64,000 nt of DNA from Candidatus Latescibacterota bacterium (GTDB lineage Bacteria; Latescibacterota; UBA2968; GCA-2709665): positions 3,392,001 through 3,456,000 of the forward strand of contig OZ244744.1 in the NCBI GenBank assembly GCA_965219455.1, read 5' to 3'. Numbering within the stretch: position 1 is the stretch's first letter; every line of letters starts with the position of its first letter. The notes under the pieces were generated by a model. The model searched no databases, was not told the DNA's origin, and saw nothing but the letters and a program-made list of their open reading frames with translations. A program made the translations under genes and the position numbers. Positions 24,782 to 61,382 of the stretch are shown here, piece after piece.

Positions 24782-25083
24782 CCGGAGAGCGAGAGTGTGA
24801 CGAGAGAAGCAGTAGACGCCGGCGAGAATAGAAATCGGAGACATTAGTAGACGGTAGACTTTGGACTTGGAGGAATCGACAGGGAACAGGATCGGGTTAG
24901 GCCCTGTTCAGAATCTGTCAAAGCGGGCGGCGTGCCGTCGCAGAAATATCCATCCAGTCAGTGAAAGGAACTCTACCAGTCTGAGAATAACATATATGGC
25001 ACCCGGCCGCGTGGAACATTTTTTCGAATTTTTCTCTGGAAGCCTGTGGACTGGATCGACCCTCCTGAGGGCATCTTCGGCGT

Positions 25084-48071: not shown

Positions 48072-48443
48072 CTTGAAAAGGTGGAGAAGACATTCTTGTC
48101 TGCTCATATACAGCAAACCGAAATCTCAGAATGCTGTGTCCGGGAACGCCAAAACTCGCCGCCGTCTTCCCCACTGGAAGAAGGACGGCGCTGTCTATTG
48201 GATCACCTTTCGCCTGGCTGACGCGATCCCCCATGGACAAACGCCGTGCCTTCCAAGAAGCGCGTAAGGTGTGGCTCAAGCGCCATCCCGAGTATTGGTT
48301 CTATAGTGGCGGCGCAAGCCTTTCTTCTGTCTGCATTCCGGCAAAAGGACAATGAGAAGGGCAGACAGGAATGTCTGCCCCACCTTCACGATTCCTCAAG
48401 GGCTCGACAAGCCATTGTGCGCGGGGAAGATGATTGATTCGCG
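48072..48443. mobile_element. Remnant of REP-associated tyrosine transposase (RAYT/IS200-like) flanked by inverted REPs
   Basis: Inverted 28-bp REPs at 48078-48105 and 48359-48386 (gcagacaggaatgtctgc core); internal frameshifted fragment RRRLPHWKKDGAVYWITFRLADAIP / WLKRHPE from 48157. Confidence 0.75.
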
Positions 48444-48741
48444 TATAAAGCAGCTTTGTTGACCAAATACCCTTCGCGTGTTTGCCCGCCGAGCGCGGGC
48501 TGAAATTACCCATCTGAAGTTTCTTGTTGGATCGAACATCGGTGGCTCTTGTCACCGGTGTTTTCTTGTTACAACGATTCCCTGTGCGTTCGGCGCGGCG
48601 TAAGATGCAACAACGTTTCATCCGAGTGAGGCAGAATGGAACACGTTTTTCAAGTACCGGCCGTGGTACGGCGACCTCCGGACCGTTCAAAAATAAAGTC
48701 GCATATGCAAGCCAGACAGTTATGCCCCTGGGTATTGAGAG

Positions 48742-48756
48742 TGGCACAATCCTTGC
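48742..48756 (+). promoter_or_regulatory. Sigma54 (-24/-12) promoter candidate upstream of peptide precursors
   Basis: TGGCAC-AATCC-TTGC exact consensus spacing, about 230 bp before the first precursor ATG. Confidence 0.65.
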
Positions 48757-48985
48757 GAGTCCAATGCGTCGACGGAGTCACCGGCAACGGGTGTCGGGTG
48801 ACAGGTTATCACGGTTGATTCGCAGCCGAAGCCGCCCCGGCGGGGCGTGTGCCGAGATCGGAAAAAAGGCATACAAAACGCTTCGGAAATCATGGCATCT
48901 CAGCGATGCGCATCCGGCTCCCTGATTTACAACAGAGGAGATTGTCAGGATATCGCGGGGATGTTGACGAAAGGAGGTGATAGAC

Positions 48986-49189
48986 ATGAACAGGCGAACT
49001 GTATCAAGCCCTGTGGACTCGTCCGGAATTCCGGCTCGGCTTCCCATCCGGACGGAGGACTTGACCCACGGGCAGATTGCAGGCATCTCCGGTGGCGACG
49101 CCGGGTTTGGACGCCTCATCAGAGAATTAGTCGCTGAGATTTTTGGCGTGAGATTACCTGCACCAGAGGTTCCGTCCATAACATTGTAG
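48986..49189 (+). CDS. Double-glycine-leader peptide precursor 1 (37-aa leader + 30-aa core)
   Basis: AAGGAGGTGA RBS; leader ends EDLTHGQIAGISGG; core DAGFGRLIRELVAEIFGVRLPAPEVPSITL; C39-PCAT downstream. Confidence 0.78.
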   Translation: MNRRTVSSPVDSSGIPARLPIRTEDLTHGQIAGISGGDAGFGRLIRELVAEIFGVRLPAPEVPSITL

Positions 49190-49338
49190 CCATCAAGTAA
49201 TACCGCATCCGGAAGTGGCCTTTGATGGTCCAAATGTGTCCGTCTATTCATTCGCGCAGAGGTATATGGACTCATTATATCGGCGCAAACGGATACATCT
49301 GAGTATCGCTGAGACCCAAAGAGGAAGGAGGTGACGAA

Positions 49339-49542
49339 ATGACCGATCGAATCCTTACAGTGCCAACCCAGGCCACCGTGACCTGCGCTCAGCTCCCTGG
49401 CCGTGAGATCGAACTGGCGCATCGTGAGATGTTGAATTCATCGGGAGGTATCTGGCTACCTACAGGTCCGATCTTTATGGTCCGGTTTATTGCGGAGAGA
49501 ATTGCAGAGGTCATTGACGATTACTTCGACGACGGGAGTTAA
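49339..49542 (+). CDS. Double-glycine-leader peptide precursor 2 (37-aa leader + 30-aa core)
   Basis: AAGGAGGTGA RBS; leader ends ELAHREMLNSSGG; core IWLPTGPIFMVRFIAERIAEVIDDYFDDGS. Confidence 0.78.
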   Translation: MTDRILTVPTQATVTCAQLPGREIELAHREMLNSSGGIWLPTGPIFMVRFIAERIAEVIDDYFDDGS

Positions 49543-49779
49543 TCTTGTGTCCGGTCACGTGGAAGGCCGTAATTCCTGGCGACCTCCACAGGCGACAGTT
49601 CGAGTTGAATTTTCAATATGCGCGTTTTTTTTTGTGGCATCGCCGATGACGGAACCAAACCCTCAGGATATCGTCCGCAATCCAGCTGATCGGCGGGTTG
49701 CTGAAGACACCGTGGTCACTGCGAGACGCAGCATCGTAATCGTAGACACTAATCCTAAACAAATCTTCAGGAGGACATC

Positions 49780-50046
49780 ATGACTCACGCGTTGGCTAAT
49801 CCGATGGCGACCGATGCCGGTCACAAGGTTGTAGCCTGTAATCCACTTCGGTGGCGGGAAGAATTACTCGACACTGGACAGATGGGAGAAACACATGGTG
49901 GGTTCATTTTTATACCAGCCCTGGTCGCGGCTGCCCAAGCTGCCGCACCCTGGATATTGGGTACTGCGAGTGGTATCGTTGCTGGATACATTGTCGCTGA
50001 GTTAACGTCCAATAACGGGGGTGGAAGCTGTTGCTGCAAAAAGTGA
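49780..50046 (+). CDS. Double-glycine-leader peptide precursor 3 (41-aa leader + 47-aa class II bacteriocin-like core)
   Basis: AGGAGG RBS; leader ends ELLDTGQMGETHGG; hydrophobic core FIFIPALVAAAQAAAPWILGTASGIVAGYIVAELTSNNGGGSCCCKK. Confidence 0.85.
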   Translation: MTHALANPMATDAGHKVVACNPLRWREELLDTGQMGETHGGFIFIPALVAAAQAAAPWILGTASGIVAGYIVAELTSNNGGGSCCCKK

Positions 50047-50075
50047 GTAGTATGCACAGATAGTCTGTTTGTTTA

Positions 50076-50121
50076 TTTCTGGGATAGGTGCAGTTCAGGG
50101 CTTCTGCACCTATCCCAGAAA
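50076..50121 (+). terminator. 18-bp perfect stem-loop after precursor genes (attenuator/mRNA stabiliser)
   Basis: TTTCTGGGATAGGTGCAG-N10-CTGCACCTATCCCAGAAA. Confidence 0.7.
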
Positions 50122-50152
50122 AGGTCGATTGACACAAGAGTGGAGGTTTTGG

Positions 50153-50953
50153 ATGAAGGACGCCCTACTCGGGGGAACGTGGAGACGTTTTTTTCTCACG
50201 GCCTTTTTGTATGCGTGTTTGTCCGTTGCGCCGGCCGTTCTATTTGTTAAGTATGTCCTTAATCTGGACAATTCTATACTGTTAGCTGTTTTCGTTGGTC
50301 AGGCATTTTCGTTTATAATCCTGCGAAGAACGCTCTCTGCGTCTGCTGAGCGAATGCTGCGCGCAGTCTGCGGGCTGATTAAGTCGAGTCCCGAAGAAAT
50401 AAAAGGCGTCGAAGACCGAAAATCCGGTCAAGTAGCTATTGACAAAGATGAAGTGTACCAATTGTCCGCATTGATGTTCTGGCTCTCCGCGATGATTGTC
50501 GTGATCGTCAGATTCTCGCTTTCGTGGGAAGTCGATTTACGTCTATCGTTCGGGGGTTTGTTTAAATTCGCAGGATACCTCATCGTTGTTTATGTTTTTC
50601 ACGAAGCACTTCACGGTATTGCCGCGATAGCCTGGGCAAAGATTCCATTTCAATCACTGCACTTTGGTATCAACAGGCGATTGATGGCCCTGTACTGTCA
50701 TGCCGACAGACCGATGACGGTAAGCGCTTACCGGGCATTCGTGCTCTTGCCCATAATTGTGACAACACCGGCTGCGGCCCTGGTATTGTGGTTGGACCCT
50801 GCGATCTGGTCGCTCTTGCTCTTCAGTGGGACAGTTGCCGGGTGCGCCGGAGATGTCATGGTTTATTTCCAAGTCCGCCGACTTGACAATGACAGATGGG
50901 TAAAGGATCACCCGTCGGATATCGGCTTTCGCATTTTGCCTGAAGGGGAATAA
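50153..50953 (+). CDS. DUF3267-like membrane zincin metallopeptidase (candidate immunity/processing)
   Basis: GGAGG RBS; TM segments; HEALHG (HExxH), YCH, LLP, G..GD, DHP...GF. Confidence 0.8.
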   Translation: MKDALLGGTWRRFFLTAFLYACLSVAPAVLFVKYVLNLDNSILLAVFVGQAFSFIILRRTLSASAERMLRAVCGLIKSSPEEIKGVEDRKSGQVAIDKDEVYQLSALMFWLSAMIVVIVRFSLSWEVDLRLSFGGLFKFAGYLIVVYVFHEALHGIAAIAWAKIPFQSLHFGINRRLMALYCHADRPMTVSAYRAFVLLPIIVTTPAAALVLWLDPAIWSLLLFSGTVAGCAGDVMVYFQVRRLDNDRWVKDHPSDIGFRILPEGE

Positions 50954-51033
50954 CGATAACCTGAGGCGACGAATCCCGAATACGAAAACCGCACGACCCC
51001 ATTTCTCTATCCACCACATATGAAGGTATCTCA

Positions 51034-51876
51034 ATGACGTATCCGAATCTGAAGCAGGCCATTTGGTTGTTGGTTTTATTTGCACTCATTCAAGTCATTC
51101 TGGTCGTGCTTGCGGCCGCTGCAGGCCGGTGGCTGTTCGAGAGTGAATTCTTGTCGGTCATTCTGTTAGTTGTGAGTTTCATTGTCATTCTGCTTTATGT
51201 GCACTACCGCGCAGATCTGACGTGGGAGGATATATCCCGGAGTTTCAACGTGGATTTTGATTGGCGGGTTTGGCCCTGCGTCACAATATCCATTGTCGGT
51301 ATGGCGATGGTTCTTTTCGAATTGGACAAAGCCTTGGTCCGTATAATGCCTATGCCAGAGTGGGTACAGGATACCCTTCATTCGGCGTTCGGGCGCGAAA
51401 CATCTTTCTCGTCTGCCTTACTCTATGCAGTTATTGTCGGACCTTTGGTCGAAGAGGTGCTTCATAGAAGGATAATATTGAGTGGTCTTCTGGCAAACTA
51501 TAACGCGATTAATGCGTTTGTCTGGTCAGCAGTTCTGTTTGGCGTGTTTCATCTGATTCCGTGGCAAATCCCCGGCGCGTTCCTCGGGGGATTGTTACTT
51601 GCCTGGTGGGTTATCCGAACGGGGTCTTTGTTGCCCGCTCTGTTCGGGCACGTGTTGAACAATATTATCGGCGTTGCATCTCTGCACTTTGAAATTCCAT
51701 ATCTGGCGGTTTCGGATGACCTTAATGTTGTGGTTTTCAATCCTTGGTGGTGGATTGTTTCCGGGGCGGCGTTGGCCGCTCTCGGACTATGGTGGTTTTC
51801 ACGGGTTTCGAAACCCGTTCAGCCCGGTTCCCACGACCATGTTCTTCCTGCAAATGCCGAGACAAATACAGGTTAG
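51034..51876 (+). CDS. CPBP (CAAX/Abi) intramembrane protease 1
   Basis: EEVLHR, FGVFH, GSL.P....H..NN motifs. Confidence 0.9.
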   Translation: MTYPNLKQAIWLLVLFALIQVILVVLAAAAGRWLFESEFLSVILLVVSFIVILLYVHYRADLTWEDISRSFNVDFDWRVWPCVTISIVGMAMVLFELDKALVRIMPMPEWVQDTLHSAFGRETSFSSALLYAVIVGPLVEEVLHRRIILSGLLANYNAINAFVWSAVLFGVFHLIPWQIPGAFLGGLLLAWWVIRTGSLLPALFGHVLNNIIGVASLHFEIPYLAVSDDLNVVVFNPWWWIVSGAALAALGLWWFSRVSKPVQPGSHDHVLPANAETNTG

Positions 51877-52170
51877 GGACTGACAGGGCGTTCCTGGTTT
51901 CGTTAGTACCCACATCGGCTACTGGGCGCTCTCCGGGGACGCAATCGGTCGTTGTTACACATATTATATATAATATATCCTGGAGAGAATGGGTCGACTT
52001 CAAATCTCCGCAAATTAAAATTGAGAGCCGCGTGCAGGATCTCTCGTCAGCGACGGCAAGTCCCGGGTATCCAGCCGGAAGTCTAGTCCGCAACCAACGA
52101 GCCGCGTCCCACCGGACATCGGTATACATCCGGACGTTCGAATAGTTCTGCCATTTACGGGAAGGAAACA

Positions 52171-55100
52171 ATGGACGTCTTGTCCCTCTTTTCCCAACAT
52201 GAGATTCAGTCAGAATCCGTCCGGTTTCCCTTCGGGGCGGTCATCTTTGATCAAGGCGGAACTGGCGCCGCATTTTACGTCGTTCAATCCGGTCGGTTGC
52301 GGGTCATCAAACAGGCTGCGGACGCCCGTTCGGAGACGCTGGGATATTTGTACGCCGGCGATCATTTTGGCGAAGGGGCGCTGTTGACGGGGCGCGGGCA
52401 TCGGGCAACGGTGCGAGCGGTTGAGGATTCCCTGGTGTTGCGGGTACCGCGGGATGAATTCTTCAGGGTGTTGAAGAAAGAACCGGAAATCGAAGCCCAT
52501 CTTCAGGACCAGGTTGCGGATATCGCATACCGGGATTTCACCCGGTATCTAAAGGGTAATGTCCAAGGTGAGGCGATCCGGGAACTGTTCCGGCGATTGA
52601 CGCGCGAAGAGGTCGCGGAGGGAACGACAGTTTCGGAACCCGGTCGTTCGCGCGGGCGGTTCTGCCTGGTGGGCATCGGCGGGTTGGAAGTGATCTCAGA
52701 GGATGGCAGTGCGCTGAATTTAGTCGCGGGCGATTTTTTCGAGGATACGGATTCTTCAGATGGCGAGCAACGGACGATCCGCAGCCAGCAAGATTGCGTT
52801 ATCTATTATTTGGATAAACACGAACTCGATAGCCTCAACTATGCAATTCCTGAATTAGCGTCCTTACCGGAGATAGCCCGGCGATTACACCTGGATCAGG
52901 GAACGGACGGGTCGCTGTCTCCCGAGCCGCAACCGGGGGGATTTCGTGTGCCGGCGGGAGGGACGGACGGGAACAACGACGCGGAGATGAATGGACCGGC
53001 ATCCAGTACCGGGGATAGCGATACGGATGGGGGTGGACAAGGCGCGCCCACGTCGTTTCGTTTTCCATTCCTGAAGCAGCACGACCAGTCCGATTGCGGC
53101 GCCGCGTGTCTGGGGATGATCTGCAAGTACTACAAGTTGCCGTTGGGGTTGAACAGGTTGCGCGATATGTGCAACGTGTCGAAGGACGGCACGTCGATGG
53201 CGGCAGTGGCCGAGGCGGCGGAGACGCTGGGGTTTGTTACGCGGGGCGTGCGTACGGGCTATGAAGAGCTGATGCGGACCGGACTGCCGGCGATTCTGCA
53301 CTGGGAGGGCAACCATTTCGTGGTGTTGTATGAGATCACCAAAAAGGATGTGAAAATCGCGGATCCCGGTTTGGGCCTTCGCAGGTTGAAGCGACCGGAA
53401 TTCGAGAAAAGCTGGACCAACATGGCGTTGCTGCTGGAGTACACGGATCAGGTGGCCGAGAATGAACCCTCCAGGTCCTCCTTCAAACGTTTCTTGCCAT
53501 TGATAAGGCCCTATACGGCAATTCTGATCGAGGTGCTGCTGGCGTCCCTCGTGCTCAGTTTATTGGGCCTTGCCTCGCCTATTTTCACACAGACAATCGT
53601 CGACCAGGTGCTGGTTCATCACGATAAGGATCTCCTGAACCTGATGCTGGCGGGCATGGTGGTCGTGGCACTGTTTCAAATGGGTACCTCGACGTTGCGC
53701 GCGTATTTAATAGGGTATATGAGCGCCCGGTTGAGTCTGACCATGCTGTCCCGCTTCTACCGGCATCTGCTGGGCCTGTCCATGCGGTTTTTTGCGCTTC
53801 GCCGCACCGGCGATCTGACCACGCGGTTCAAGGAAAATGCCACGATTCAGCGTCTCTTTACCGACACGACCATCTCGGCGATACTCGACTTTATCATGTT
53901 GTTCGTCTATCTGGGGCTGATGTTCTACTACAACTGGGAATTGACGCTCGTGATGTTGATATTCGTGCCGCTGTCCGTGGGTTTGACGCTGATCTATACC
54001 CCGATTCTGAAGTCCTTCAGCCAGCGCGCATTTCTTGCCCGCGCGGAACAGTCGTCCGTCCTGATCGACTCGCTGCATGGCATTGACGTGGTGAAAGCCG
54101 AAGCCGTCGAGCGGGTTACGAGATGGCAGTGGGAGGGCAAGTTTACGAGGGAAGTTCAGATCGGGTTTCGACGACTGAAAATGGAGATGCTGTTCGGCGC
54201 GGGCGGAAGTATGATTAATCTCTTGAGTTCCACGGTGATATTGTGGTATGGCGCCTCCCTGGTTATCGACGGGGAGTTGTCGGTGGGCCAGTTGATGGCT
54301 TTCAACGCCCTCATCGGCAATGTAATGGGACCCATTATGGGACTGATCGGCGTGTGGCCGGAGGTCCAGGAAGCCCGGGTCGCGTTGGACAGGCTGAATG
54401 ACGTCTACGAATCGAAGATGGAGGATGCGCGCCAACGCGGACACGGCCTGAGACTGAAGCGGGTCGAGGGCCGCCTGGTGTTTGAAGGTGTGTTTTTCAG
54501 GTACGGCGTCGGTTCCGACGAGCCCTACGTGTTGAACAACATCGAGCTGGAACTGGAACCGGGTCGAAAGGTCGCCATTGTCGGCCGTAGCGGCGCGGGA
54601 AAGACCACGCTCGTAAAGCTGGTGCCCCGTCTGTTCGATCCCTCGGAAGGGCGTGTGCTCGTGGACGGGATGGATGTGCGCGATTTCGACCCTCACTGGC
54701 TGCGCCGCCAGGTGGGCATGGTTATGCAGGACTCGTTTCTGTTCAGCGGCACCATTGCGGAGAACATCGCGGTCGGAGAATCTGACGCGGATATGGACCG
54801 TCTCCTGGAAGTTGCAAGATTGGCCTGCGTCCAGGATTTCGTAAACGATATGCCTTTGGGATACGAGACCAAGGTGGGCGAACAGGGAATTGGATTGTCC
54901 GGCGGGCAGCGGCAACGGATCGCGATCGCCCGGGCGCTGTATCGCGATCCGAAGATACTGATTTTCGACGAGGCGACAAATGCGCTTGATACGGACTCGG
55001 AAGGTGCGATTCAGTCCAATCTGGAGCTATTCCTTGAGAATCGTACGGCTCTCGTCATCGCCCATCGGTTGAGCACCGTGAGGGATGCCGACACGATTGT

Positions 55101-55206
55101 TGTACTGGAAAAGGGCCATATCGTCGACATGGGCACGCACGAAGAACTGATGGTTCGTCGCGGTCTCTACTATCACATGTGCAGCCAGCAGTTGCAGGTG
55201 GTCTGA
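52171..55206 (+). CDS. Peptidase-containing ABC transporter with N-terminal cNMP-binding domains (cNMP-C39-TM-ATPase)
   Basis: GDHFGEGALL....RATVRA cNMP cassette plus second degenerate copy; C39 QHDQSDCGAACL, HW.GNHFVV, DP; GRSGAGKTT, LSGGQRQR, FDEAT..LD, IAHRLST. Confidence 0.95.
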   Translation: MDVLSLFSQHEIQSESVRFPFGAVIFDQGGTGAAFYVVQSGRLRVIKQAADARSETLGYLYAGDHFGEGALLTGRGHRATVRAVEDSLVLRVPRDEFFRVLKKEPEIEAHLQDQVADIAYRDFTRYLKGNVQGEAIRELFRRLTREEVAEGTTVSEPGRSRGRFCLVGIGGLEVISEDGSALNLVAGDFFEDTDSSDGEQRTIRSQQDCVIYYLDKHELDSLNYAIPELASLPEIARRLHLDQGTDGSLSPEPQPGGFRVPAGGTDGNNDAEMNGPASSTGDSDTDGGGQGAPTSFRFPFLKQHDQSDCGAACLGMICKYYKLPLGLNRLRDMCNVSKDGTSMAAVAEAAETLGFVTRGVRTGYEELMRTGLPAILHWEGNHFVVLYEITKKDVKIADPGLGLRRLKRPEFEKSWTNMALLLEYTDQVAENEPSRSSFKRFLPLIRPYTAILIEVLLASLVLSLLGLASPIFTQTIVDQVLVHHDKDLLNLMLAGMVVVALFQMGTSTLRAYLIGYMSARLSLTMLSRFYRHLLGLSMRFFALRRTGDLTTRFKENATIQRLFTDTTISAILDFIMLFVYLGLMFYYNWELTLVMLIFVPLSVGLTLIYTPILKSFSQRAFLARAEQSSVLIDSLHGIDVVKAEAVERVTRWQWEGKFTREVQIGFRRLKMEMLFGAGGSMINLLSSTVILWYGASLVIDGELSVGQLMAFNALIGNVMGPIMGLIGVWPEVQEARVALDRLNDVYESKMEDARQRGHGLRLKRVEGRLVFEGVFFRYGVGSDEPYVLNNIELELEPGRKVAIVGRSGAGKTTLVKLVPRLFDPSEGRVLVDGMDVRDFDPHWLRRQVGMVMQDSFLFSGTIAENIAVGESDADMDRLLEVARLACVQDFVNDMPLGYETKVGEQGIGLSGGQRQRIAIARALYRDPKILIFDEATNALDTDSEGAIQSNLELFLENRTALVIAHRLSTVRDADTIVVLEKGHIVDMGTHEELMVRRGLYYHMCSQQLQVV

Positions 55207-55233
55207 ACCTCCGGCAGACCAGGAGCCGATCTG

Positions 55234-56634
55234 ATGGCGGAACCCGGACTAACAAAGCCGTCGGCAGCAGCGACGCCGGTCATTCTCCCGGGACGGTACG
55301 ACGGTACGGAAGAGATGCAGGCGTTCGTGGGGTCTCTGAGGCCGTTCTGGGGTCGAGCGTTGCTCTATCTCGTTCTGCTCTTTGTAGGAATCGCGGTGGC
55401 TTGGGCGTGGTGGGGCAAGGTGGACGTGGTGGCATCGGCGCCCTTCCGATTGGTGCCTCTGGGCAAGGTGAAGACGCTTCAGGCCCGTCGAGGCGGAGAA
55501 ATCGAGCATATCGGCGTCAGCGAAGGCGATCGGATCGAAGAAGGCCAATTGCTGTTCAAACTGAAGTCATGGGAAACCTGGGGAGACCTTCGAGAACTGG
55601 AACAGGCGGAAATGGCGTTTCAAAAGGCCGAGTACGATCTTCAACGGGTATTGCCCCAGAGGACGGAATTGAACCGGAAAACCATCGCGTCAATGGAAAA
55701 AAGACTGTCTGTTCTGGAGCGGTTCATGGTGGCCCATCAGAACGCCTTGCAGGATTACCACGCGGACGTGGGTGACGACGCGGTCGCGGGAAGGAGCGCT
55801 TCGGACGCTGAGTTGCAGGCACAAATCGGCTTTCGCCAGGCTGAGATCGACCATTTGAAACAGGATTACCTGCAGCAGAAATTGCTGTTTGAGCGCAAGC
55901 TGATCAGCCGCGTGGAAATTAACCGCGCGCGCGTTCGGTACCTCAGCGCCCTGGCGGCGCTTCCGGGACGCATGTCGGAAATCTACAAGAACGAAACGGC
56001 TGTCCAGGATCTCCAACGGCAGATTCTCGAGGCTCGCATCGCCCACGGGCGTGAGGCCTCGCAGATGAAACACGCGTATGAAACCGCGCGATTGAGATTG
56101 GAACAGGCGCGTAAACGCGTCGATCGACAGTTGGAAGCCGAATCGGACCTGATTCTGGCGCCGGAGCCGGGCATCGTAACGCAGGTGATGGTGAACACCC
56201 TGGGACAGGTGATCAGCAAGGGTCAGGCGCTGGTTTCGGTGGCGCCGGCCTCTGCTCCCATGGTTGCCGAACTCACGGTATTGAACAGGGACGTGGGCCT
56301 GCTTAAACCCGGACAGATAGTCAAACTGAAATACGACGCGTTTGCATTTCAGGACTTTGGCATCAAACGCGGCTGGCTCAAACAACTCTCCCCCGATGCC
56401 GTCATCGACGAGAGTGTCGGGCCGATCTTCAGGGCCGTTGTTGAATTGGAAAAAACCACCATGGCCGTGAAGGGACAGCAAAAGCCGCTGCTGTTCGGAA
56501 TGAAGGGGACGGCGGAAATCATGACGGACCGCCAATCGGTCTTGCTGATGTTACTCAGTCCTTTGAGAAAGCTGTACGAGTCCGCAACGTACGATGCCGC
56601 GGAAACGTCAATTGCGCGGCAGGGGGATTCGTAA
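55234..56634 (+). CDS. HlyD family secretion membrane-fusion protein
   Basis: Single TM, V.EGD...GQ.L lipoyl half, coiled coil, AP..G.V, D.G....GQ...LK.DAF.FQ.FG, GM.GTAEI. Confidence 0.93.
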   Translation: MAEPGLTKPSAAATPVILPGRYDGTEEMQAFVGSLRPFWGRALLYLVLLFVGIAVAWAWWGKVDVVASAPFRLVPLGKVKTLQARRGGEIEHIGVSEGDRIEEGQLLFKLKSWETWGDLRELEQAEMAFQKAEYDLQRVLPQRTELNRKTIASMEKRLSVLERFMVAHQNALQDYHADVGDDAVAGRSASDAELQAQIGFRQAEIDHLKQDYLQQKLLFERKLISRVEINRARVRYLSALAALPGRMSEIYKNETAVQDLQRQILEARIAHGREASQMKHAYETARLRLEQARKRVDRQLEAESDLILAPEPGIVTQVMVNTLGQVISKGQALVSVAPASAPMVAELTVLNRDVGLLKPGQIVKLKYDAFAFQDFGIKRGWLKQLSPDAVIDESVGPIFRAVVELEKTTMAVKGQQKPLLFGMKGTAEIMTDRQSVLLMLLSPLRKLYESATYDAAETSIARQGDS

Positions 56635-57449
56635 TGCGGCGTCCGGCGGAAGACGAAACCGTAGCCTCGGCCCTTGAAATAACGCTGGTTCAGGTCAATG
56701 GCATCGATGTGTCGCTGAATCAGGTCGCATGTCAGCTGGGCGTTGCCGACAAACTCGATTTTTTCGGTGAATTCGCACGCAGGGAACTGGTCCGGCAGCT
56801 TGCCGTCCGGGAAGGTATTCACACGACGTCCGAAGACATCCAGCGCGACGTGGACGATTGGCGTTACCGACATCGCCTGGAAAGGGTGGAAGACACGGAA
56901 GCCTGGCTGGTATCGCGAGGCATTACTCTCGGAGACGTTGCGGCGGAAGCCGAAGACAGGCTGTTGGAGCGCCTGCTGTGTGAAAAAATAGCGGAAGGAG
57001 AAATCGAACGCTATTTCGCGCAAAACACGCTGGATTTCGACGAGGCGGAGGTCTGCTGGGTCTTCCACCCGGACAGAGGTACCATCGAGGAGATTGCGCT
57101 TCAGACGCGGGAAGACGGCACCGATTTTTGCGCGATGGCCCGCGGATTTTCGCAAGATGAGCGGACGCGCCCGGCAGGCGGGTTTATGGGGCGCGTGCGG
57201 CGCAAGCTGTTGCCGAAGGGAATCGCGGCGCGGGTTTTCGCCGCCTCGCCGGGGGAAATCTTCGGACCCGAAAAGGCGTCGGGCGGGTTCGCGCTGTTTA
57301 TGCTTCAGCAGAACCATCCTGCAACGCTTGACGACCGCGTCACAGGCGAGATTCGCGACACATTGTTCAACCAGTGGCTTCAAAGGGAGTTGCAACGGGC
57401 GGACATACGCTATCCGATCTGGGAGGCCGGGAAGCAGGAGCGGCAATAA
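56634..57449 (+). CDS. PpiC-type peptidyl-prolyl isomerase (peptide-export associated)
   Basis: SurA-like N-terminal helices; F...AR.FS.D......GG.MG, F....GEI.GP; TAATG overlap with hlyD. Confidence 0.85.
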   Translation: MRRPAEDETVASALEITLVQVNGIDVSLNQVACQLGVADKLDFFGEFARRELVRQLAVREGIHTTSEDIQRDVDDWRYRHRLERVEDTEAWLVSRGITLGDVAAEAEDRLLERLLCEKIAEGEIERYFAQNTLDFDEAEVCWVFHPDRGTIEEIALQTREDGTDFCAMARGFSQDERTRPAGGFMGRVRRKLLPKGIAARVFAASPGEIFGPEKASGGFALFMLQQNHPATLDDRVTGEIRDTLFNQWLQRELQRADIRYPIWEAGKQERQ

Positions 57450-58066
57450 ATGCCCGGCAGAGGCCGGTGACTGCGTGCTTCACCGATGGCAGCAAAATAG
57501 ACCTCGAGGTATACCTTCGGTTTACCGGTGGTTGGGCTCAATCATAGCGAACCGTCAACGCAGCGGCTGGCTTCAGGTAAGCATACGCCCTCGCTGCTGA
57601 CTGATCGCCTTTATCATACTTAATCTGAATTAGCACTTGTCATTCTCATTCGCGGAAACTATATTTCGGTTGTCACCACTCAGGCAGTACCCGTATGTCG
57701 GGTAGCCTACCGAATACAATAGCCGACTTTCAGGGGCAAGGGTAGCTCCCATGTCCCCGGCGAATACGTAGGACCTTCCCGCATCCTCAAAGCTGCGTGA
57801 GTGGTGACACTGCCCGGCACCCTTTAATCGGGGTGCCGCCGGAAAGTTCATCACTGAATGGCGAGGGGATGGAGCGGGATTTTTTTGTGCCCTTTTCGGC
57901 ACGTACGGTCAACCGATGCGGCGGCGCGGTCTATAATATCACGTGTGCGGTCAGCAGTTGCAGGTGGTGTGTACACATAATTAAGAAACGGTACTCAGAC
58001 TGAGCCGCGTCCCCACTGGTTTGCGGTCGTTGGATGTGCTGACATCTGTCAAATGGGAGGAAATAC

Positions 58067-58894
58067 ATGGCGTATCCGAACCTGAAGCAATCCGTGTGGC
58101 TCCTGATATTGTGTTTCCTGATCAGCGTGGTACTGGGGGTGCCGATCGCAATCCTGGGTCTCATCTTCGACCGGTCTTTACATCACAGCCCACACGAAAT
58201 CCAGCTCTTGACATTGGCCGGTTTCGTTTTGACGGTAATCTACGCAAAGCGTAGAGCAGATCGGACCTGGCGCGAGATCCTGCTTTTTGAGCGGGTTTCG
58301 TGGCAATTCTACATGCCGCTCGGCGTGTCCATTGTTGGACTGGCAATCGTTGGCTCGGACCTGGGAAACCTGTTGCGGCACCTGATACCGGTGCCCGAAA
58401 TAATGCTCAACGTATTCGGGGATCTGGCAGGGAAGGAGAAGTCCTACCCGTTCACATTTTATGTCATGGTGGTTCAGGCGCCATTGATTAAGGAAGTCCT
58501 CTTCAGAAGCGTTATACTGGGTGGCTTGTTGGCCCACCGAACGCGGAATCAGGCCATTGTCTGGTCGGCGTTGCTGTTCGCTGTATTTCATATGAACCCA
58601 TGGCAATTTCCCACGGCCTTGATATTGGGACTCGTATTCGCATGGTGGGTCGTCCAAACTGGCTCTCTGCTGCCCGCGATCGTGGGACACGCGCTGAACA
58701 ATTTTCTGATAGTGACGGTTGCGCATCTGGAAATTTTCGGTCCCATGGATAATGTCAATGCCGTGATGTTGCTTCCCGGGTGGCTGCACGTATGTGGCGT
58801 TATCCTGGCTCTGATCGGATTGTGGTGGTTCAATGAGATGGCAAAAAGCAAAGGCGAGCAGGTCGAAACGCTAGCAGACCGGGAGCATGTCTGA
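58067..58894 (+). CDS. CPBP intramembrane protease 2 (first catalytic Glu replaced: KEVLFR)
   Basis: MAYPNLKQS N-terminus shared with paralogues; FAVFH, GSLLP....HALNN. Confidence 0.88.
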   Translation: MAYPNLKQSVWLLILCFLISVVLGVPIAILGLIFDRSLHHSPHEIQLLTLAGFVLTVIYAKRRADRTWREILLFERVSWQFYMPLGVSIVGLAIVGSDLGNLLRHLIPVPEIMLNVFGDLAGKEKSYPFTFYVMVVQAPLIKEVLFRSVILGGLLAHRTRNQAIVWSALLFAVFHMNPWQFPTALILGLVFAWWVVQTGSLLPAIVGHALNNFLIVTVAHLEIFGPMDNVNAVMLLPGWLHVCGVILALIGLWWFNEMAKSKGEQVETLADREHV

Positions 58895-58978
58895 TGGCGG
58901 AACCCCTCAAACGACCCTCGCCGGGGATCCGGATCGATTGATGTACGGACAGCTGATCGTTTAAATGGGAGGCCATAC

Positions 58979-59834
58979 ATGGCGTATCCGAATCTGAAGC
59001 AATCCGTCCTGTTGGTGGTCCTGTTGTACCTGATTATGTTAGGACTGTTTTTGCCCCTTGTCCTCCTGAGCGGGATTCTTGACCAGGATTTGATCTCGAA
59101 TCCCTATGTCAATACCTTCGTGACATTGGTCAGTTTCTTCCTGGTGATTGTGTACGCCCGGCGGCGGACCGACCGGACCTGGCCCGATATCCTGCTATTC
59201 AGAACGGTACCCTGGGGATTGTACCTGCCCCTTGCGGTTTCTATTGTTGGACTGTCGATCGCAATCTCCATCGTGGAAGACGGGGTACATTACCTGATTC
59301 CGATGCCCGAAATGATAGTCAAGATATTTCGAGATCTGGTGTCGAAAGAAACGCCCTATGCTTACGCTTTTTATAACCTTGCGGTCCAGCCGCCGTTTAC
59401 GGAAGAAGTGCTATTCAGGGGTGTCATTCTGATTGGCTTGCTGGCCCACCAGACCCGGAAACGGGCTATTTTCTGGTCGGCATTCCTGTTCGCTCTATTT
59501 CATTTGAATCCGTGGCAGATTCCCGCCGCCCTTGTATTGGGAATTGTATTTGCCTGGTGGGTCATTCAGACCGGTTCGCTGCTGCCCGCGATTGCGGGCC
59601 ATGCGCTGAATAATTTCCTTTTCCTCAATGGTTGCGCGCTACGAAATATTCGGGCCTTTGGATGATTTCAATAATCTGGCATGCCTTCCGTGGTGGCTGA
59701 ACGTGTGCGGCATCATCCTCGCAGTAGTCGGTTTGTGGTGGTTCAACCAGATGGTAAACCGCGGCAAGACGCAGGTAGAAATGTCGACCAACCATGCGCC
59801 GGTCGAAGCGCCCGCTGATCGGGATCCTGTCTGA
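58979..59834 (+). pseudogene. CPBP intramembrane protease 3, frameshift near 59615-59625
   Basis: EEVLFRG, FALFH, HALNN in 58979..59665; paralogue-matching C-terminus (MVARYEIFGP..LPWWLNVCG..GLWWFNQM) continues in ORF 59628..59834. Confidence 0.85.
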
Positions 59835-60185
59835 TGGTGCAACCCGAATGAGTGGACTCGTCGGGAACACCGTCTCCAATGGCCCTCCCGAAGCGGAAGA
59901 GGACGGAATAGCGATGCGCGTCTGCGCGCCAGGCATCTGGTTCGGCAATGGCGCCCTTCGGCACCCCAACATCGCAATATCGAAGTCAATTAATGTGTTG
60001 CAGTTTGCAACAGGATATGGGTATTATGGAGGGAATCCGGATGTAAATTCGCACACATCGAGGATGTAGATTTCCCGCGGCAGGAAGATCAGGCACAACC
60101 CGACAAGGCGTTTGCCCCATGCGGAGTGGGTTCCCCCTTAGCGCCCCATCGTACCCGCCTGCGCCGGCGAATGAGTGAATCGCCC

Positions 60186-61382
60186 ATGATTCCTCGAAAA
60201 AGACTGGATATCGGCTGGCGCGATCTCCTTTTCGGCATGAACCAATGCCTGGCGCGGGACAGACGCGCGGAAGCCCATACTGCGTGCCGGGAGAGCACCG
60301 GCGATCCCGACGATGCTCTGTTTTTTCTCTCGCTTCGCAGCGGCTTCGATGCCTATCTCCAGGCCGCCCGATTTCCGAGCGGGTCGCACATTCTGGTGTC
60401 CGCCATCACCATTCCCGACATGCTCGAGATCATCCGGAGCCATGGCCTGGTGCCCGTACCGGTCGATCTGGATCCACTCACGCTTGCGCCCGATCCGGAG
60501 AGCCTGGAAAGCGGGGTCACGCCCAGGGCCGTTGCGCTGCTGGCGACCCATTTGTTCGGCGCCCGCATCCCCATGGATCCCCTCGTAAGCTTCGCAAGGC
60601 GTCACGGCCTGGTGCTGTTGGAAGACTGCGCCCAGGCGTTCTGGGGTGACGGCTTTACAGGCCACCCGGGCAGTCACGTGCGGATGTTCAGTTTCGGCCC
60701 TATCAAGTACAATACCGCTTTGGGTGGCGGCCTTCTTTTTGTGGGCGATCCCGTCCTGCGAGACAGAGTTCGGCGGCTGCATAACGACTATCCGGTACAG
60801 AGCAAAGGCCGGTTCTTCGTGCGCCTGGCGAAATACGGCGTCGTTCTCCTGCTCAACAGGCCTGGACCCTATACCCTTCTGTGCGCCGCGTGCCGCCTGT
60901 TGGGCAGGTCCCACGATACGGTGAGTTACCGCGCCATACGCGGTTTCCGGGGAGTGGAACTGCTCGAAAAAATCCGCCGTCAGCCCTGCGGCGCCCTTCT
61001 GTCCTTATTGTCGAGGCGTCTGCGCTCCAACGCTCTGGAGCGGACCGGCAGCCGGCCTGAGGCCATGGCGTTTCACCGCAGCGTTCCGGACCTCTGCTAC
61101 CCGGGCAACGGGGCGGAACACACCTATTGGCTCTTCGTCGTCCGTGTGGGCAATGCCGCGGACCTGTGCAGGCGGCTCTGGGATGCCGGCCTGGACGGAC
61201 ATCTGTGGCCGCCGTCGCTTTGCGTGGTTCGGCCCGATCGGGATCTGCCGGGCAAGTTGCCACTCTGCGTGGACGTCCTGCAACGGCAACTGCTGTTCCT
61301 TCCGGTGTATCCGCAGGCAGGGCGGGTTCGCCTTCAGCAGTTGAGCCGCGTCGTGCGCCGATGGGCGCAGCAGCATGGGTGA
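60186..61382 (+). CDS. DegT/DnrJ/EryC1/StrS-like PLP aminotransferase
   Basis: SAITIPDM, PVPVD, THLFG, EDCAQA, FSFG.IK..TALGGG. Confidence 0.85.
   Translation: MIPRKRLDIGWRDLLFGMNQCLARDRRAEAHTACRESTGDPDDALFFLSLRSGFDAYLQAARFPSGSHILVSAITIPDMLEIIRSHGLVPVPVDLDPLTLAPDPESLESGVTPRAVALLATHLFGARIPMDPLVSFARRHGLVLLEDCAQAFWGDGFTGHPGSHVRMFSFGPIKYNTALGGGLLFVGDPVLRDRVRRLHNDYPVQSKGRFFVRLAKYGVVLLLNRPGPYTLLCAACRLLGRSHDTVSYRAIRGFRGVELLEKIRRQPCGALLSLLSRRLRSNALERTGSRPEAMAFHRSVPDLCYPGNGAEHTYWLFVVRVGNAADLCRRLWDAGLDGHLWPPSLCVVRPDRDLPGKLPLCVDVLQRQLLFLPVYPQAGRVRLQQLSRVVRRWAQQHG

What the first reader, a model, noticed from the sequence alone, without database searches (positions are those of the whole stretch)
48742..59834. 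Putative new bacteriocin/peptide-signalling system: three double-Gly precursors, cNMP-C39 PCAT, HlyD, rotamase and four membrane metalloproteases
Seen: three small co-oriented ORFs, each with a strong RBS and a leader ending in E(L/D)-x-GG. They are followed by a DUF3267-like zincin, a CPBP, a C39 peptidase ABC transporter with intact Cys/His/Asp, HlyD, a PpiC protein and two more CPBPs. Established: C39 PCATs cleave after GG leaders and export via HlyD/TolC; CPBPs act as bacteriocin immunity proteins; the cNMP-C39-ABC + HlyD + PPIase arrangement is best known from cyanobacteria (HetC-like). Inference: a complete, enzyme-light secreted-peptide system in a non-cyanobacterial host. No LanM, YcaO or radical SAM is present, so products would be unmodified or modified only by proteolysis and isomerisation. 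The precursors would probably be missed by routine annotation.
Basis: partly seen in the sequence, partly recalled or inferred. Interest (0 to 1): 0.9.

Follow-up and report, generated by a model that had tools for sequence, protein, structure and literature searches.

The report
Latescibacterial double-glycine peptide export locus
An uncultured Latescibacterota bacterium carries a conserved gene cluster that most likely cuts and secretes a family of small, fast-evolving peptides with a previously unmodelled leader, flanked by variable membrane proteases that may protect the producer or process the peptides.

Summary
Three small + strand ORFs (48986-49189, 49339-49542, 49780-50046) with strong ribosome-binding sites precede a DUF3267 zincin, a CPBP, a cNMP-C39-ABC transporter (PCAT), HlyD, a PpiC-like protein and two more CPBPs, the last frameshifted.

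The ORFs are real genes. Their 37-41-residue leaders form one family ending in Gly-Gly. A leader profile hits only these three ORFs in the 5.84 Mb genome. It hits same-strand ORFs upstream of the PCAT in 39 of 53 related loci. Leaders are conserved, cores are not, and codon differences are mostly synonymous only in the called frame.

The host lineage is Candidatus Latescibacterota. PCAT-HlyD-PpiC-like is the conserved core (52 of 53 loci). DUF3267 and CPBP genes are variable accessories.

The core matches the cyanobacterial "group I" bacteriocin-type cluster, so this is a new variant of a known kind. "Bacteriocin" is unproven: 56 of 74 cores are net anionic, and cyanobacterial analogues act in biofilm formation or differentiation. 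DUF3267 was recently shown to be a leader-removing intramembrane protease for transmembrane bacteriocins (TMcins). The third precursor, which is hydrophobic and ends SCCCKK, may therefore be processed in the membrane.

The parts
48868..48985 (+). Conserved non-coding block and 5' leader upstream of the first precursor. It is a candidate structure pairing CGCUUC with the Shine-Dalgarno GGAGGU.
   Evidence: The block is conserved in both families (A3). In the consensus structure 96.7% of cells pair, against 34-54% when the partner is slid. Three pairs change on both sides, but 93 of 500 shuffles reach that number. The single-sequence z-score is only -1.42. No Rfam family reaches its gathering score.
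48986..49189 (+). pre1: type A precursor of 67 aa, with a 37-aa leader ending ISGG and a 30-aa amphipathic core.
   Evidence: SD AAAGGAGGTG. The leader profile hits it at E 6e-18. Orthologues are 54-75% identical in same-genus loci. Synonymous/nonsynonymous ratio is 1.22 in frame against 0.19-0.31 in shifted frames.
49339..49542 (+). pre2: type B precursor of 67 aa, with a 37-aa leader ending SSGG and a 30-aa core with an acidic tail.
   Evidence: SD GGAGGTGA. Hit by the A, B and C leader profiles. Synonymous/nonsynonymous ratio is 1.27 in frame against 0.11-0.22 shifted.
49780..50046 (+). pre3: type C precursor of 88 aa, with a 41-aa leader ending THGG and a 47-aa hydrophobic Gly/Ala-rich core ending SCCCKK.
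   Evidence: SD AGGAGG. Profile E 6e-16. Core GRAVY is 0.94 with 3 Cys. Nearest ESM Atlas clusters are class IIb bacteriocin-like at 0.88, which is a lead only.
50153..50953 (+). DUF3267 (PF11667) putative S2P-clan intramembrane zincin. This is the form of about six TM helices, with an N-terminal two-helix module.
   Evidence: Pfam 56.8 bits against a cut-off of 27.1. HExxH is kept in 28 of 28 homologues. The N-terminal module is homologous to free-standing 95-101-aa two-TM proteins in L025, L022 and L047. GGAGG lies before the ATG at 50153.
51034..51876 (+). CPBP1: Rce1-like intramembrane protease with EExxxR, FxxxH and HxxxN intact.
   Evidence: PF02517, E 1.3e-16; motifs. It is only 49-50% identical to its counterpart in the nearest genome, where the PCAT is 95% identical.
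52171..55206 (+). PCAT: an N-terminal cNMP-binding domain, a C39 peptidase domain, an ABC membrane domain and an ATPase.
   Evidence: Pfam. The C39 domain matches LahT150 6mpz at 2e-22 and PCAT1 4ry2, with Q303, C309, H382 and D398 aligned. No NCBIfam model reaches its cut-off.
55234..56634 (+). HlyD-family periplasmic adaptor of type I secretion.
   Evidence: TIGR01843, 211.7 bits against a cut-off of 208.65.
56634..57449 (+). PpiC-like protein: a SurA/PrsA-type chaperone with an inserted parvulin domain and no N-terminal hydrophobic signal, so probably cytoplasmic.
   Evidence: PF00639 E 2.3e-10. TIGR04500 scores 80.2 bits, below its cut-off of 180, over model positions 84-336. The model has pLDDT 82. 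Foldseek matches SurA 2pv3, PrsA and PEB4/Cj1289.
57895..57969 (+). Relic of a PCAT C-terminus: 25 codons, 64% identical to PCAT residues 987-1011, with an internal stop.
   Evidence: tblastn, E 1.9e-6. The same relic is in L011 and L012.
58067..58894 (+). CPBP2: the conserved CPBP copy, with KExxxR in place of EExxxR.
   Evidence: PF02517 E 1e-18. It is 95-97% identical in L011 and L012. Nine CPBP ORFs, the window's CPBP2 among them, share the changed first motif.
58979..59834 (+). CPBP3: split by a one-base frameshift at about 59627-59629, after all three catalytic motifs.
   Evidence: The two ORFs 58979-59665 and 59628-59834 align end to end with intact 275-aa copies in L032.

Best explanation
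This is a lineage-specific peptide maturation and export locus of Candidatus Latescibacterota.

Proposed steps:
1. The three small genes encode precursors with a shared 37-41-residue leader. Its consensus is MxxRxxSxPxxxxxxCxxLPxxxxxLxxxEMAxxSGG.
2. The C39 domain of the cNMP-gated ABC transporter cuts after the Gly-Gly (inferred).
3. The cores are pumped out through HlyD and a TolC-type channel encoded elsewhere (inferred).
4. The PpiC-like protein is a cytoplasmic SurA/PrsA-type chaperone. It probably holds precursors, or the transporter, in an export-competent state (inferred).

The products are unmodified or only proteolytically trimmed peptides of three kinds. A and B are about 30 residues. 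C is a longer hydrophobic peptide with a Cys-rich basic tail. Their cores turn over quickly and are swapped at the cleavage site.

I think they most likely act in competition between close relatives, that is, as bacteriocin-like peptides. On that reading the variable DUF3267-CPBP cassettes protect the producer, perhaps by cutting membrane-inserted peptide.

Confidence by step: export system about 0.85, antagonistic function about 0.45, immunity role of the proteases about 0.4.
For: Genes and domains.

The precursors are real genes:
- Profiles iterated from the three leaders converge on one family. A and C share 63 hits, A and B share 36.
- They hit only the 3 window ORFs among 133,346 six-frame segments, a set that includes the whole 5.84 Mb genome.
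- In 39 of 53 oriented related loci every hit is on the PCAT strand and upstream of the PCAT.
- L23 and G40 are invariant. Mean pairwise identity is 0.35 in leaders and 0.16 in cores.
- Codon differences are mostly synonymous only in the called frame.

The protease is competent: the C39 Q/C/H/D residues align with LahT150 and PCAT1.

The core is conserved:
- PCAT-HlyD-PpiC-like is present in 20 of 20 and 52 of 53 loci.
- The PpiC-like protein scores E < 1e-50 in 33 of 41 related genomes.

An outer-membrane channel is available: five TolC-type OEP genes lie elsewhere in the genome.

The PpiC-like protein looks like a chaperone: SurA/PrsA-like fold. MirC (TIGR04500) is a required cytoplasmic chaperone partner in a RiPP pathway that also has a PCAT (PMC13097080, section 9 read).

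The evolutionary pattern resembles toxin and immunity genes:
- Against the nearest genome, PCAT is 95%, HlyD 96%, PpiC 91% and CPBP2 95% identical.
- pre1 is 72%, pre2 69%, pre3 40%, CPBP1 49-50% and DUF3267 55% identical.
- An almost identical type A leader carries an unrelated core in L011. A contig of metagenome run X9 diverges from the window just after the pre1 Gly-Gly codons; by my own translation it reads the same other core allele as L011.
- DUF3267 and CPBP genes number 0-3 and 0-5 per locus and recur as DUF3267-CPBP pairs that outnumber type C precursors, as in L014.

A weak lead: the nearest ESM Atlas clusters to pre3 are class IIb bacteriocins at 0.88.
Against: - No cleavage, export or activity has been measured.
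- 56 of 74 cores are net anionic, 6 neutral and 12 cationic. This is unlike typical class II bacteriocins.
- The studied analogues of the same architecture are not antibiotics. EbfG1-4/PteB enable biofilm formation. HetC drives heterocyst differentiation and its cNMP domain binds ppGpp.
- CPBP and DUF3267 genes are missing within 10 kb from loci that have precursors: L048-L051, L053, L060 and L068.
- The only characterised DUF3267 protein is a leader protease, not an immunity protein.
- CPBP2, the one conserved CPBP, has a changed first catalytic motif.
- No Pfam or NCBIfam bacteriocin or leader model matches.
- No TolC gene lies in the window.
- Evidence for transcription is one metatranscriptome's contigs from a 90-95% alike relative. 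This does not exclude DNA carry-over.
Confidence: 0.6

Rival explanations
1. The export machinery works as above, but the peptides are not weapons. They are signals or extracellular matrix or adhesion components, as with EbfG1-4 of Synechococcus elongatus or the unknown HetC substrate. The cNMP domain ties release to a nucleotide second messenger. CPBP and DUF3267 would then mature the peptides, as the CPBP MroQ is annotated for staphylococcal peptide signalling.
For: - The architecture is the same as PteB and HetC clusters.
- Most cores are acidic (56 of 74) and many are Trp/Pro-rich.
- The cNMP-binding domain is intact.
- A candidate SD-sequestering 5' leader suggests regulated translation.
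- CPBP2 and CPBP3 give weak, below-cut-off NCBIfam matches to the MroQ and myxosortase-type models.
Against: - Core swapping under a constant leader and hypervariable neighbouring membrane proteins are more typical of conflict systems.
- I looked for no receptor or two-component sensor next to the locus. The Pfam scan of the larger window ORFs lists no histidine kinase or response regulator family.
- Several unrelated cores per locus is unusual for a signal.
Confidence: 0.3
2. Type C peptides follow a hybrid, TMcin-like membrane pathway. pre3 inserts into the producer's membrane through its hydrophobic core. The adjacent six-helix DUF3267 protein is an S2P-clan protease with a fused escort-like two-helix module. 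It, and perhaps CPBP1, trims or escorts pre3 in the membrane before the PCAT extracts it. On this reading DUF3267 and CPBP are biosynthetic, not immunity, proteins.
For: - TmcP (DUF3267) removes the 45-residue leader of the membrane-embedded TmcA. The two-TM TmcE is required and resembles part of six-TM DUF3267 proteins (PMC13252029, Results and Discussion read).
- In the window the DUF3267 gene directly follows pre3.
- The pre3 core is a 34-residue hydrophobic stretch followed by Cys residues.
- HExxH is kept in 28 of 28 DUF3267 copies.
- Free-standing 95-101-aa two-TM proteins are homologous to the N-terminal module of the six-TM form: E 1e-19 for L025, 4e-4 for L022 and 6e-4 for L047. A 92-93-aa two-TM ORF that looks alike lies just downstream of the type C' precursor in L013 and L017; it did not reach the threshold.
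Against: - The leader already ends in Gly-Gly and a competent C39 domain is present.
- No TmcBC-type transporter lies in the locus.
- pre3 lacks the 28-residue beta-hairpin loop of TMcins.
- There are several divergent DUF3267-CPBP pairs per single type C precursor, for example L014 with 1 precursor, 2 DUF3267 and 4 CPBP.
- Type C precursors occur without any DUF3267 in L026-L029 and other loci.
- Homology of the two-helix module to TmcE was not tested.
Confidence: 0.2
3. The small ORFs are not translated, and the PCAT exports some other, larger substrate encoded elsewhere.
For: There are no expression data of quality. A 214-aa minus-strand ORF at 48778-49422 overlaps pre1 and pre2.
Against: - The leader family is specific to one frame and one strand and always lies upstream of the PCAT.
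- The synonymous excess appears only in the called frame.
- All three starts have strong SD sites.
- The minus-strand ORF has no Pfam family.
Confidence: 0.03

Closest known systems
Cyanobacterial 'group I' bacteriocin-type gene clusters (Wang, Fewer & Sivonen 2011, PMC3140520), which include the PteB/EbfG1-4 cluster of Synechococcus elongatus and relate to the HetC transporter
   Same: Both have a long-type transporter with an N-terminal CAP_ED/cNMP domain plus C39 plus ABC, a HlyD adaptor, a SurA-like rotamase protein, and several small double-glycine precursors next to them. Neither has dedicated modification enzymes.
   Different: - The host phylum is Latescibacterota.
- The leader family is different and unmodelled, and about 40 residues long.
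- There are arrays of DUF3267 and CPBP intramembrane proteases.
- Some cores have poly-Cys tails.
- Direct homology of this PCAT or PpiC-like protein to the cyanobacterial ones was not tested. TIGR04500 did not ring in the control genome Synechococcus elongatus at E <= 1e-10.
TIGR04500 / MirC, the SurA-like partner protein of the rosaritide graspetide pathway (Carter et al. 2026, PMC13097080)
   Same: Both are cytoplasmic SurA-like chaperone-type proteins encoded beside a PCAT in a ribosomal peptide pathway. The window protein matches the model at E 1.6e-22.
   Different: - The score of 80 bits is far below the cut-off of 180.
- The N-terminal domain of MirC, residues 1-90, is absent.
- No ATP-grasp synthetase was found in the window ORFs scanned.
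- The window protein keeps a recognisable parvulin domain (PF00639). The authors found no similarity between MirC's C-domain and a PPIase domain.
TMcin biosynthetic clusters (TmcA/TmcP/TmcE/TmcBC) of Bacillota and Actinomycetota (PMC12328743, PMC13252029)
   Same: Both have a DUF3267 (PF11667) HExxH intramembrane protease next to a precursor with a leader of about 40-45 residues, a transmembrane-type hydrophobic core and C-terminal cysteines. Both have a two-TM module that is either fused or free-standing.
   Different: - Here the leader is of Gly-Gly type and export is by PCAT/HlyD, not TmcBC.
- There is no beta-hairpin loop.
- I saw no sequence match of pre3 to a bacteriocin model.
- The host is a Gram-negative-type candidate phylum.
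Class II (IIb) double-glycine bacteriocin loci with Abi/CPBP immunity genes of lactic acid bacteria
   Same: Both have Gly-Gly leaders, a C39 ABC transporter with an accessory protein, adjacent pairs of about 30-residue peptides, and CPBP genes alongside. The immunity role of Abi proteins is recalled from Kjos et al. 2010, which I did not read here.
   Different: - PF10439, TIGR01847 and TIGR03949 do not match at E <= 0.01.
- The leaders are twice as long.
- The cores are mostly anionic.
- The system has a Gram-negative-type HlyD, a cNMP domain and a PpiC-like protein.

Membership tests
PCAT (peptidase-containing ABC transporter, C39) | C39 domain with catalytic Gln, Cys, His and Asp | tested here: met
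   Q303, C309, H382 and D398 align with LahT150 6mpz and PCAT1 4ry2.
PCAT (peptidase-containing ABC transporter, C39) | ABC transmembrane domain and ATPase on the same chain | tested here: met
   PF00664 E 2.6e-54 and PF00005 E 7e-34.
PCAT (peptidase-containing ABC transporter, C39) | Substrates with a double-glycine-type leader encoded nearby | tested here: met
   Three precursors lie in the window. The leader family lies upstream of the PCAT in 39 of 53 related loci.
PCAT (peptidase-containing ABC transporter, C39) | Cleavage after Gly-Gly coupled to export | not testable with these tools
   This needs biochemistry.
Cyanobacterial group I bacteriocin-type cluster (Wang et al. 2011) | Long-type transporter with an N-terminal CAP_ED/cNMP domain | tested here: met
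   PF00027 E 1.3e-25 over residues 17-103.
Cyanobacterial group I bacteriocin-type cluster (Wang et al. 2011) | HlyD and a rotamase-domain (SurA) gene in the cluster | tested here: met
   TIGR01843 over its cut-off, and PF00639.
Cyanobacterial group I bacteriocin-type cluster (Wang et al. 2011) | Cyanobacterial host, or orthology to the cyanobacterial transporters | tested here: not met
   The related records are titled Latescibacterota or Latescibacteria, with three Gemmatimonadota and one 'uncultured bacterium'. Orthology to cyanobacterial PCATs was not tested.
TIGR04500 (PpiC_rel_mature; MirC-type) | Score at or above the curated cut-off of 180 bits | tested here: not met
   80.2 bits in the window. 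0 of 151 Latescibacterota genomes are over the cut-off, and 39 of 151 match at E <= 1e-10.
TIGR04500 (PpiC_rel_mature; MirC-type) | N-terminal domain (model positions 1 to about 85) and a partner ATP-grasp synthetase | tested here: not met
   The match covers model positions 84-336 only. No ATP-grasp family was found in the locus genes or the larger window ORFs.
TMcin biosynthetic cluster | DUF3267 (TmcP-type) HExxH intramembrane protease | tested here: met
   PF11667 at 56.8 bits against 27.1. HExxH is kept in 28 of 28 copies.
TMcin biosynthetic cluster | TmcA-type precursor: a transmembrane helix plus a C-terminal beta-hairpin loop pinned by two conserved Cys | tested here: inconclusive
   pre3 has a hydrophobic core and three terminal Cys, but only 13 residues follow the hydrophobic stretch. 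It was not compared with a TmcA sequence.
TMcin biosynthetic cluster | TmcE two-TM escort and a TmcBC ABC exporter | tested here: inconclusive
   A two-TM module is fused to DUF3267 and is free-standing in relatives. Its homology to TmcE was not tested. No TmcBC-like genes lie in the locus, which has a PCAT instead.
Known double-glycine leader or bacteriocin models (PF10439, TIGR01847, class IIb) | Match to the family model | tested here: not met
   None of the three precursors matches any Pfam or NCBIfam family at E <= 0.01. ESM Atlas likeness is 0.88, which is a lead only.
CPBP/Abi bacteriocin immunity proteins | PF02517 domain with the EExxxR, FxxxH and HxxxN/D motifs | tested here: met
   PF02517 is present in all three window copies. 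Of 61 CPBP ORFs of 200 aa or more, 50 keep all three motifs, 9 including CPBP2 lack the first, and 2 lack all.
CPBP/Abi bacteriocin immunity proteins | Confers protection against the cognate peptide | not testable with these tools
   This needs expression and challenge assays.

The most novel reading that the evidence does not exclude
The type C peptides would be the first transmembrane-helix bacteriocin-like peptides of a Gram-negative-type candidate phylum. They would be made by a hybrid route that joins a Gly-Gly leader and PCAT-HlyD export to intramembrane processing. A six-helix DUF3267 protease carrying its own escort module would do part of that processing, and CPBP (Rce1-like) proteases the rest. 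The poly-Cys basic C-terminal tails (SCCCKK, CCSCCCCKR, CKCDCACCN) would serve as a CAAX-like recognition, acylation or metal-binding signal for the CPBPs. The surplus DUF3267-CPBP cassettes would then give immunity by cutting foreign transmembrane peptides inside the membrane.
Probability: 0.15. Interest if true: 0.8.

Novelty: new variant of a known kind. Interest (0 to 1): 0.55.

Why it matters
Latescibacterota have no cultured member that I know of, and little is known of how they interact with neighbours. I did not check either point here.

This locus offers three things:
- A testable set of natural substrates. There are at least 95 precursor clusters sharing one leader. They could be used to study a cNMP-gated PCAT, a class whose best-studied member, HetC, still lacks a known substrate.
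- A place to ask what the SurA-like partner does when no modifying enzyme is present.
- A link between DUF3267 and CPBP intramembrane proteases and Gly-Gly peptides outside the Gram-positives. This could extend the newly described membrane-embedded RiPP biology.

If the peptides prove to be ordinary class II-like bacteriocins, the finding is a useful but incremental extension of a known system to a new phylum.

Tried and rejected
- Complex prediction of the PpiC-like protein (A1) with the leader (A2, residues 1-50) gave no verdict: 0.25 against a mark of 0.32. It says nothing either way.
- The Rfam scan of 47600-60200 gave only three sub-threshold hits, E 0.2-0.39.
- The sigma-70 promoter and terminator scan found no more sites than shuffles: 7 against 7.7, and 13 against 14.3.
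- I considered a sigma-54 promoter in the conserved upstream block and dropped it on reading the sequence. The GG/GC spacing is off by two, and the TGGCA is not kept in the second family.
- The PpiC-like alignment search of the 5.8-billion-protein set returned only close relatives in its top 120, so it said nothing on distant taxa. The exhaustive search found 308 clusters at E <= 1e-30. A sample of 10 had 5 with names, among them Bacillota and Planctomycetota MAGs and one 'putative peptide maturation system protein'. No cyanobacterial member was seen in that small sample.
- The metatranscriptome run X21 held only contigs of a 90-95% alike relative over parts of 49912-51036, and had no cover of pre1 or pre2. 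This is not evidence of absence and is only a weak hint of transcription.
- Literature searches for Latescibacter plus bacteriocin found 16 papers, 14 of them listed. From the titles and abstract openings shown, none deals with this system. This is a search listing only.
- The search of earlier findings of this scan returned nothing.

Full report
**What is there.**
The + strand between 48.9 and 59.9 kb carries, in order:
- three small ORFs;
- a DUF3267 protein (50153-50953; PF11667, 56.8 bits against a cut-off of 27.1);
- a CPBP (51034-51876);
- a 1011-residue transporter with cNMP_binding, Peptidase_C39, ABC_membrane and ABC_tran domains (52171-55206);
- a HlyD adaptor (55234-56634; TIGR01843 over its cut-off);
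- a PpiC-type protein (56634-57449);
- two more CPBPs (58067-58894 and 58979-59834).

The small ORFs start at ATG 48986, 49339 and 49780. Each start lies 5-7 nt after a strong Shine-Dalgarno site (AAAGGAGGTG, GGAGGTGA, AGGAGG). The last CPBP is split by one extra base at about 59627-59629, downstream of its catalytic motifs.

The flanks are unrelated genes. A TMEM260-like glycosyltransferase and GtrA lie on the minus strand upstream, and a DegT aminotransferase lies downstream. No TolC gene is in the window, but five OEP-family genes lie elsewhere in the genome.

G+C is 0.49-0.53 over 48-52 kb, against 0.56-0.62 in the 44-48 kb and 60-64 kb windows on either side.

**The small ORFs are genes and form one leader family.**
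I iterated HMMs from the three leaders over 133,346 stop-to-stop segments. These were the six frames of 73 fetched related loci plus the whole 5.84 Mb genome.
- The three profiles converge. A and C share 63 hits, and A and B share 36.
- In the window's own genome they hit only the three ORFs.
- In the 53 oriented loci from the genome collection, 39 have at least one hit. Every hit is on the PCAT strand and upstream of the PCAT. The 14 loci without hits are L041, L045, L054, L070 and L074-L083.
- An alignment of 74 precursors gives the leader consensus MxxRxxSxPxxxxxxCxxLPxxxxxLxxxEMAxxSGG. L23 and G40 (pre3 numbering) are invariant. After the Gly-Gly the alignment collapses. Mean pairwise identity is 0.35 in leaders and 0.16 in cores.
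- Single-base codon differences between leaders are mostly synonymous in the called frame (ratios 1.22 and 1.27). They are not in the two shifted frames (0.11-0.31).
- One subtype ends ...EEMAGIDG, with Asp at position -2.
- No Pfam or NCBIfam model matches any of the three precursors at E <= 0.01, so PF10439 and TIGR01847 do not apply.
- The profile finds 95 protein clusters among 5.8 billion public proteins. None has a Pfam domain. The few that are named are 'hypothetical protein' of Latescibacteria or Gemmatimonadota MAGs. Gene callers do find them, but nobody has named them.

**Host and spread.**
Records holding related loci are titled Candidatus Latescibacterota or Latescibacteria. Three are labelled Gemmatimonadota and one 'uncultured bacterium'.
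- The PpiC-like protein has matches at E < 1e-50 in 33 of 41 related genomes, spanning two families of one order. Some genomes have several paralogous loci.
- Across a phylum sample, TIGR04500 matches at E <= 1e-10 occur in 39 of 151 genomes. These are almost all in those two families (16 of 18 and 21 of 30, against 0 of 64 in the largest other family). None is over the model's cut-off.
- PCAT, HlyD and the PpiC-like gene sit together in 20 of 20 and 52 of 53 loci. The exception is cut by a contig end.
- CPBP and DUF3267 genes vary from 0 to 5 and 0 to 3 per locus. They are absent from the more distant paralogue classes, and from several loci that do have precursors (L048-L051, L053, L060, L068).
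- The core system is therefore precursors + cNMP-PCAT + HlyD + PpiC-like. The membrane proteases are accessories.

**How it probably works.**
The C39 domain is nearest to the double-glycine protease LahT150 (6mpz, 2e-22) and to PCAT1 (4ry2). Gln303, Cys309, His382 and Asp398 are in place. Cleavage after Gly-Gly and export through HlyD and a distal TolC is the straightforward inference.

The PpiC-like protein has no N-terminal hydrophobic segment (sequence). It folds with pLDDT 82 into the SurA/PrsA/PEB4 architecture, a helical chaperone domain with an inserted parvulin domain.

Its nearest curated family is TIGR04500, at 80 bits against a cut-off of 180 over model positions 84-336 only. That family now has a studied member. 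MirC of the rosaritide pathway is a cytoplasmic SurA-like partner that is required for modification and co-purifies with the ATP-grasp enzyme. That cluster also encodes a PCAT (PMC13097080, section 9 read).

The window holds no ATP-grasp gene among the ORFs scanned, and the window protein lacks MirC's N-domain. I therefore read it as a precursor or transporter chaperone. A fold of it with the leader gave no verdict.

The cNMP domain suggests ligand-gated export. In HetC the same domain binds ppGpp in vitro (PMC10986499, passages read).

**What the peptides are for.**
*For antagonism.* Compared with the nearest genome, the export core is 91-96% identical. The precursors (72, 69 and 40%), CPBP1 (49-50%) and DUF3267 (55%) are far more diverged. 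An almost identical type A leader carries an unrelated core in L011. A contig of metagenome run X9 leaves the window sequence a few bases after the pre1 Gly-Gly codons; translated by eye, its loose end reads the same second core allele as L011. DUF3267-CPBP pairs recur and outnumber type C precursors. All 28 DUF3267 copies keep HExxH, and 50 of 61 CPBPs keep all three motifs. The nearest ESM Atlas clusters to pre3 are class IIb bacteriocins at 0.88, which is only a lead.

*Against.* 56 of 74 cores are net anionic. The studied systems of this architecture enable biofilm formation (EbfG/PteB, PMC4997328, passages read) or differentiation (HetC). I put antagonism at about 0.45 and signalling or matrix roles at about 0.3.

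**A second reading of DUF3267.**
A 2026 preprint (PMC13252029, Results and Discussion read) builds on the TMcin discovery paper (PMC12328743, passages read). It reports three things:
- DUF3267 is the TmcP family, an S2P-clan intramembrane protease that removes the 45-residue leader of a membrane-embedded bacteriocin.
- A two-TM 'escort', TmcE, is needed.
- A subset of six-TM DUF3267 proteins resembles a TmcE-TmcP fusion.

In the window the DUF3267 gene directly follows pre3. The pre3 core is a 34-residue hydrophobic stretch followed by SCCCKK. The window protein is the form of about six helices. Its N-terminal two-helix module is homologous to free-standing 95-101-residue two-TM proteins in three related loci, at E 1e-19, 4e-4 and 6e-4. 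In L013 and L017 a 92-93-residue two-TM ORF that looks alike lies just after the type C' precursor, though it did not reach the threshold.

This makes a hybrid, membrane-level processing route for type C peptides a live rival, at about 0.2. Against it:
- a competent Gly-Gly/C39 route is already present;
- there is no TmcBC;
- there is no beta-hairpin loop;
- type C precursors occur without DUF3267 in several loci.

**Comparison and novelty.**
The core is the 'group I' cluster that Wang et al. described in 42 of 43 cluster-bearing cyanobacteria. That cluster has a long-type transporter with CAP_ED, HlyD, a SurA-type rotamase and Gly-Gly precursors.

Four things are new here:
- the phylum;
- the leader family;
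- the coupling to DUF3267 and CPBP arrays;
- the poly-Cys tails, in 8 of 74 precursors.

I searched the paper library for Latescibacter with bacteriocin and with peptidase C39, and for TIGR04500. From the listings, nothing deals with this system.

I did not see the supplements of Wang et al. (Table S2) or of the bioRxiv preprint. They might list related clusters outside the phyla named in the main texts.

I rate it a new variant of a known kind.

**Limits.**
- Nothing here shows cleavage, export or activity.
- Transcription rests on contigs of one metatranscriptome from a 90-95% alike relative. One of them bridges the pre3 core and the DUF3267 start, which does not exclude DNA carry-over.
- Related genomes are kin, so the locus counts are not independent.
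- Orthology to the cyanobacterial transporters and homology to TmcE were not tested.

Noticed in passing
window 48868-48992 (+): A conserved non-coding block lies 60-130 nt upstream of the first precursor in both families. In the consensus fold an invariant CGCUUC pairs with the Shine-Dalgarno GGAGGU. An inner 9-bp helix has three pairs changed on both sides. Paired cells are 96.7% against 34-54% when the partner is slid, but the single-sequence z-score is only -1.42 and there is no Rfam match. It may be a translational control leader.
   Followed up: partly
window 57895-57969 (+): A 25-codon relic of a PCAT C-terminus lies in the spacer between the PpiC-like gene and CPBP2. It is 64% identical to PCAT residues 987-1011 and has an internal stop. 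It is also present in L011 and L012. This suggests that the downstream CPBP array once followed a second transporter gene.
   Followed up: partly
window 58067-58894 (CPBP2) and eight further CPBP ORFs in related loci: The most conserved CPBP (95-97% identical in L011 and L012) has KExxxR instead of EExxxR. So do eight other CPBP ORFs, mostly at the same position downstream of the PpiC-like gene, making 9 of 61 ORFs in all. From memory of Rce1, the first Glu is catalytic. If so, this copy may be a non-catalytic or altered protease.
   Followed up: partly
window 59627-59629: One extra base (ctcAatg) splits CPBP3 into 58979-59665 and 59628-59834. It may be a true pseudogene or a long-read assembly error. 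The homologues in L032 are intact.
   Followed up: yes
pre3 C-terminus, window 50020-50043; relatives L031, L032, L035, L039, L046, L052, L058: Eight of 74 precursors end in a run of at least 3 Cys within the last 12 residues, often followed by basic or acidic residues (SCCCKK, CCSCCCCKR, CKCDCACCN, CCCCCCCDD). I know of no described sorting or modification signal of this form.
   Followed up: partly
loci L074-L083 (PpiC-like 34-39% identical) and L062-L072, L082 (47-53%): Some genomes of the sister family carry several paralogous PCAT-HlyD-PpiC-like loci; G028 and G039 each gave six matches, which are not copy numbers. The most distant class has no member of this leader family and no CPBP or DUF3267 within 10 kb. 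One locus (L030) has an acidic, Trp-containing small ORF upstream. Their substrates are unknown.
   Followed up: partly
window 49095, in metagenome run X9: A contig from a public metagenome follows the window through the pre1 leader and then diverges a few bases after the Gly-Gly codons. Translated by eye, it reads the other core allele (IRWRDILR...). If so, strains with the same leader and different cores coexist.
   Followed up: partly
window 22172-27933: This is a low-G+C stretch (0.48-0.54). It holds an HD-domain protein, a ResIII helicase fragment and, on the minus strand, a 949-aa fusion of an HTH, an Eco57I/N6 methylase and a BsuBI/PstI restriction endonuclease. It is probably a restriction-modification or defence islet.
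   Followed up: no
window 48001-52000: G+C is lower (0.49-0.53) over the precursor, DUF3267 and CPBP1 part than in the export core (0.56-0.58) and the flanks. This fits cassette exchange in the variable part.
   Followed up: no
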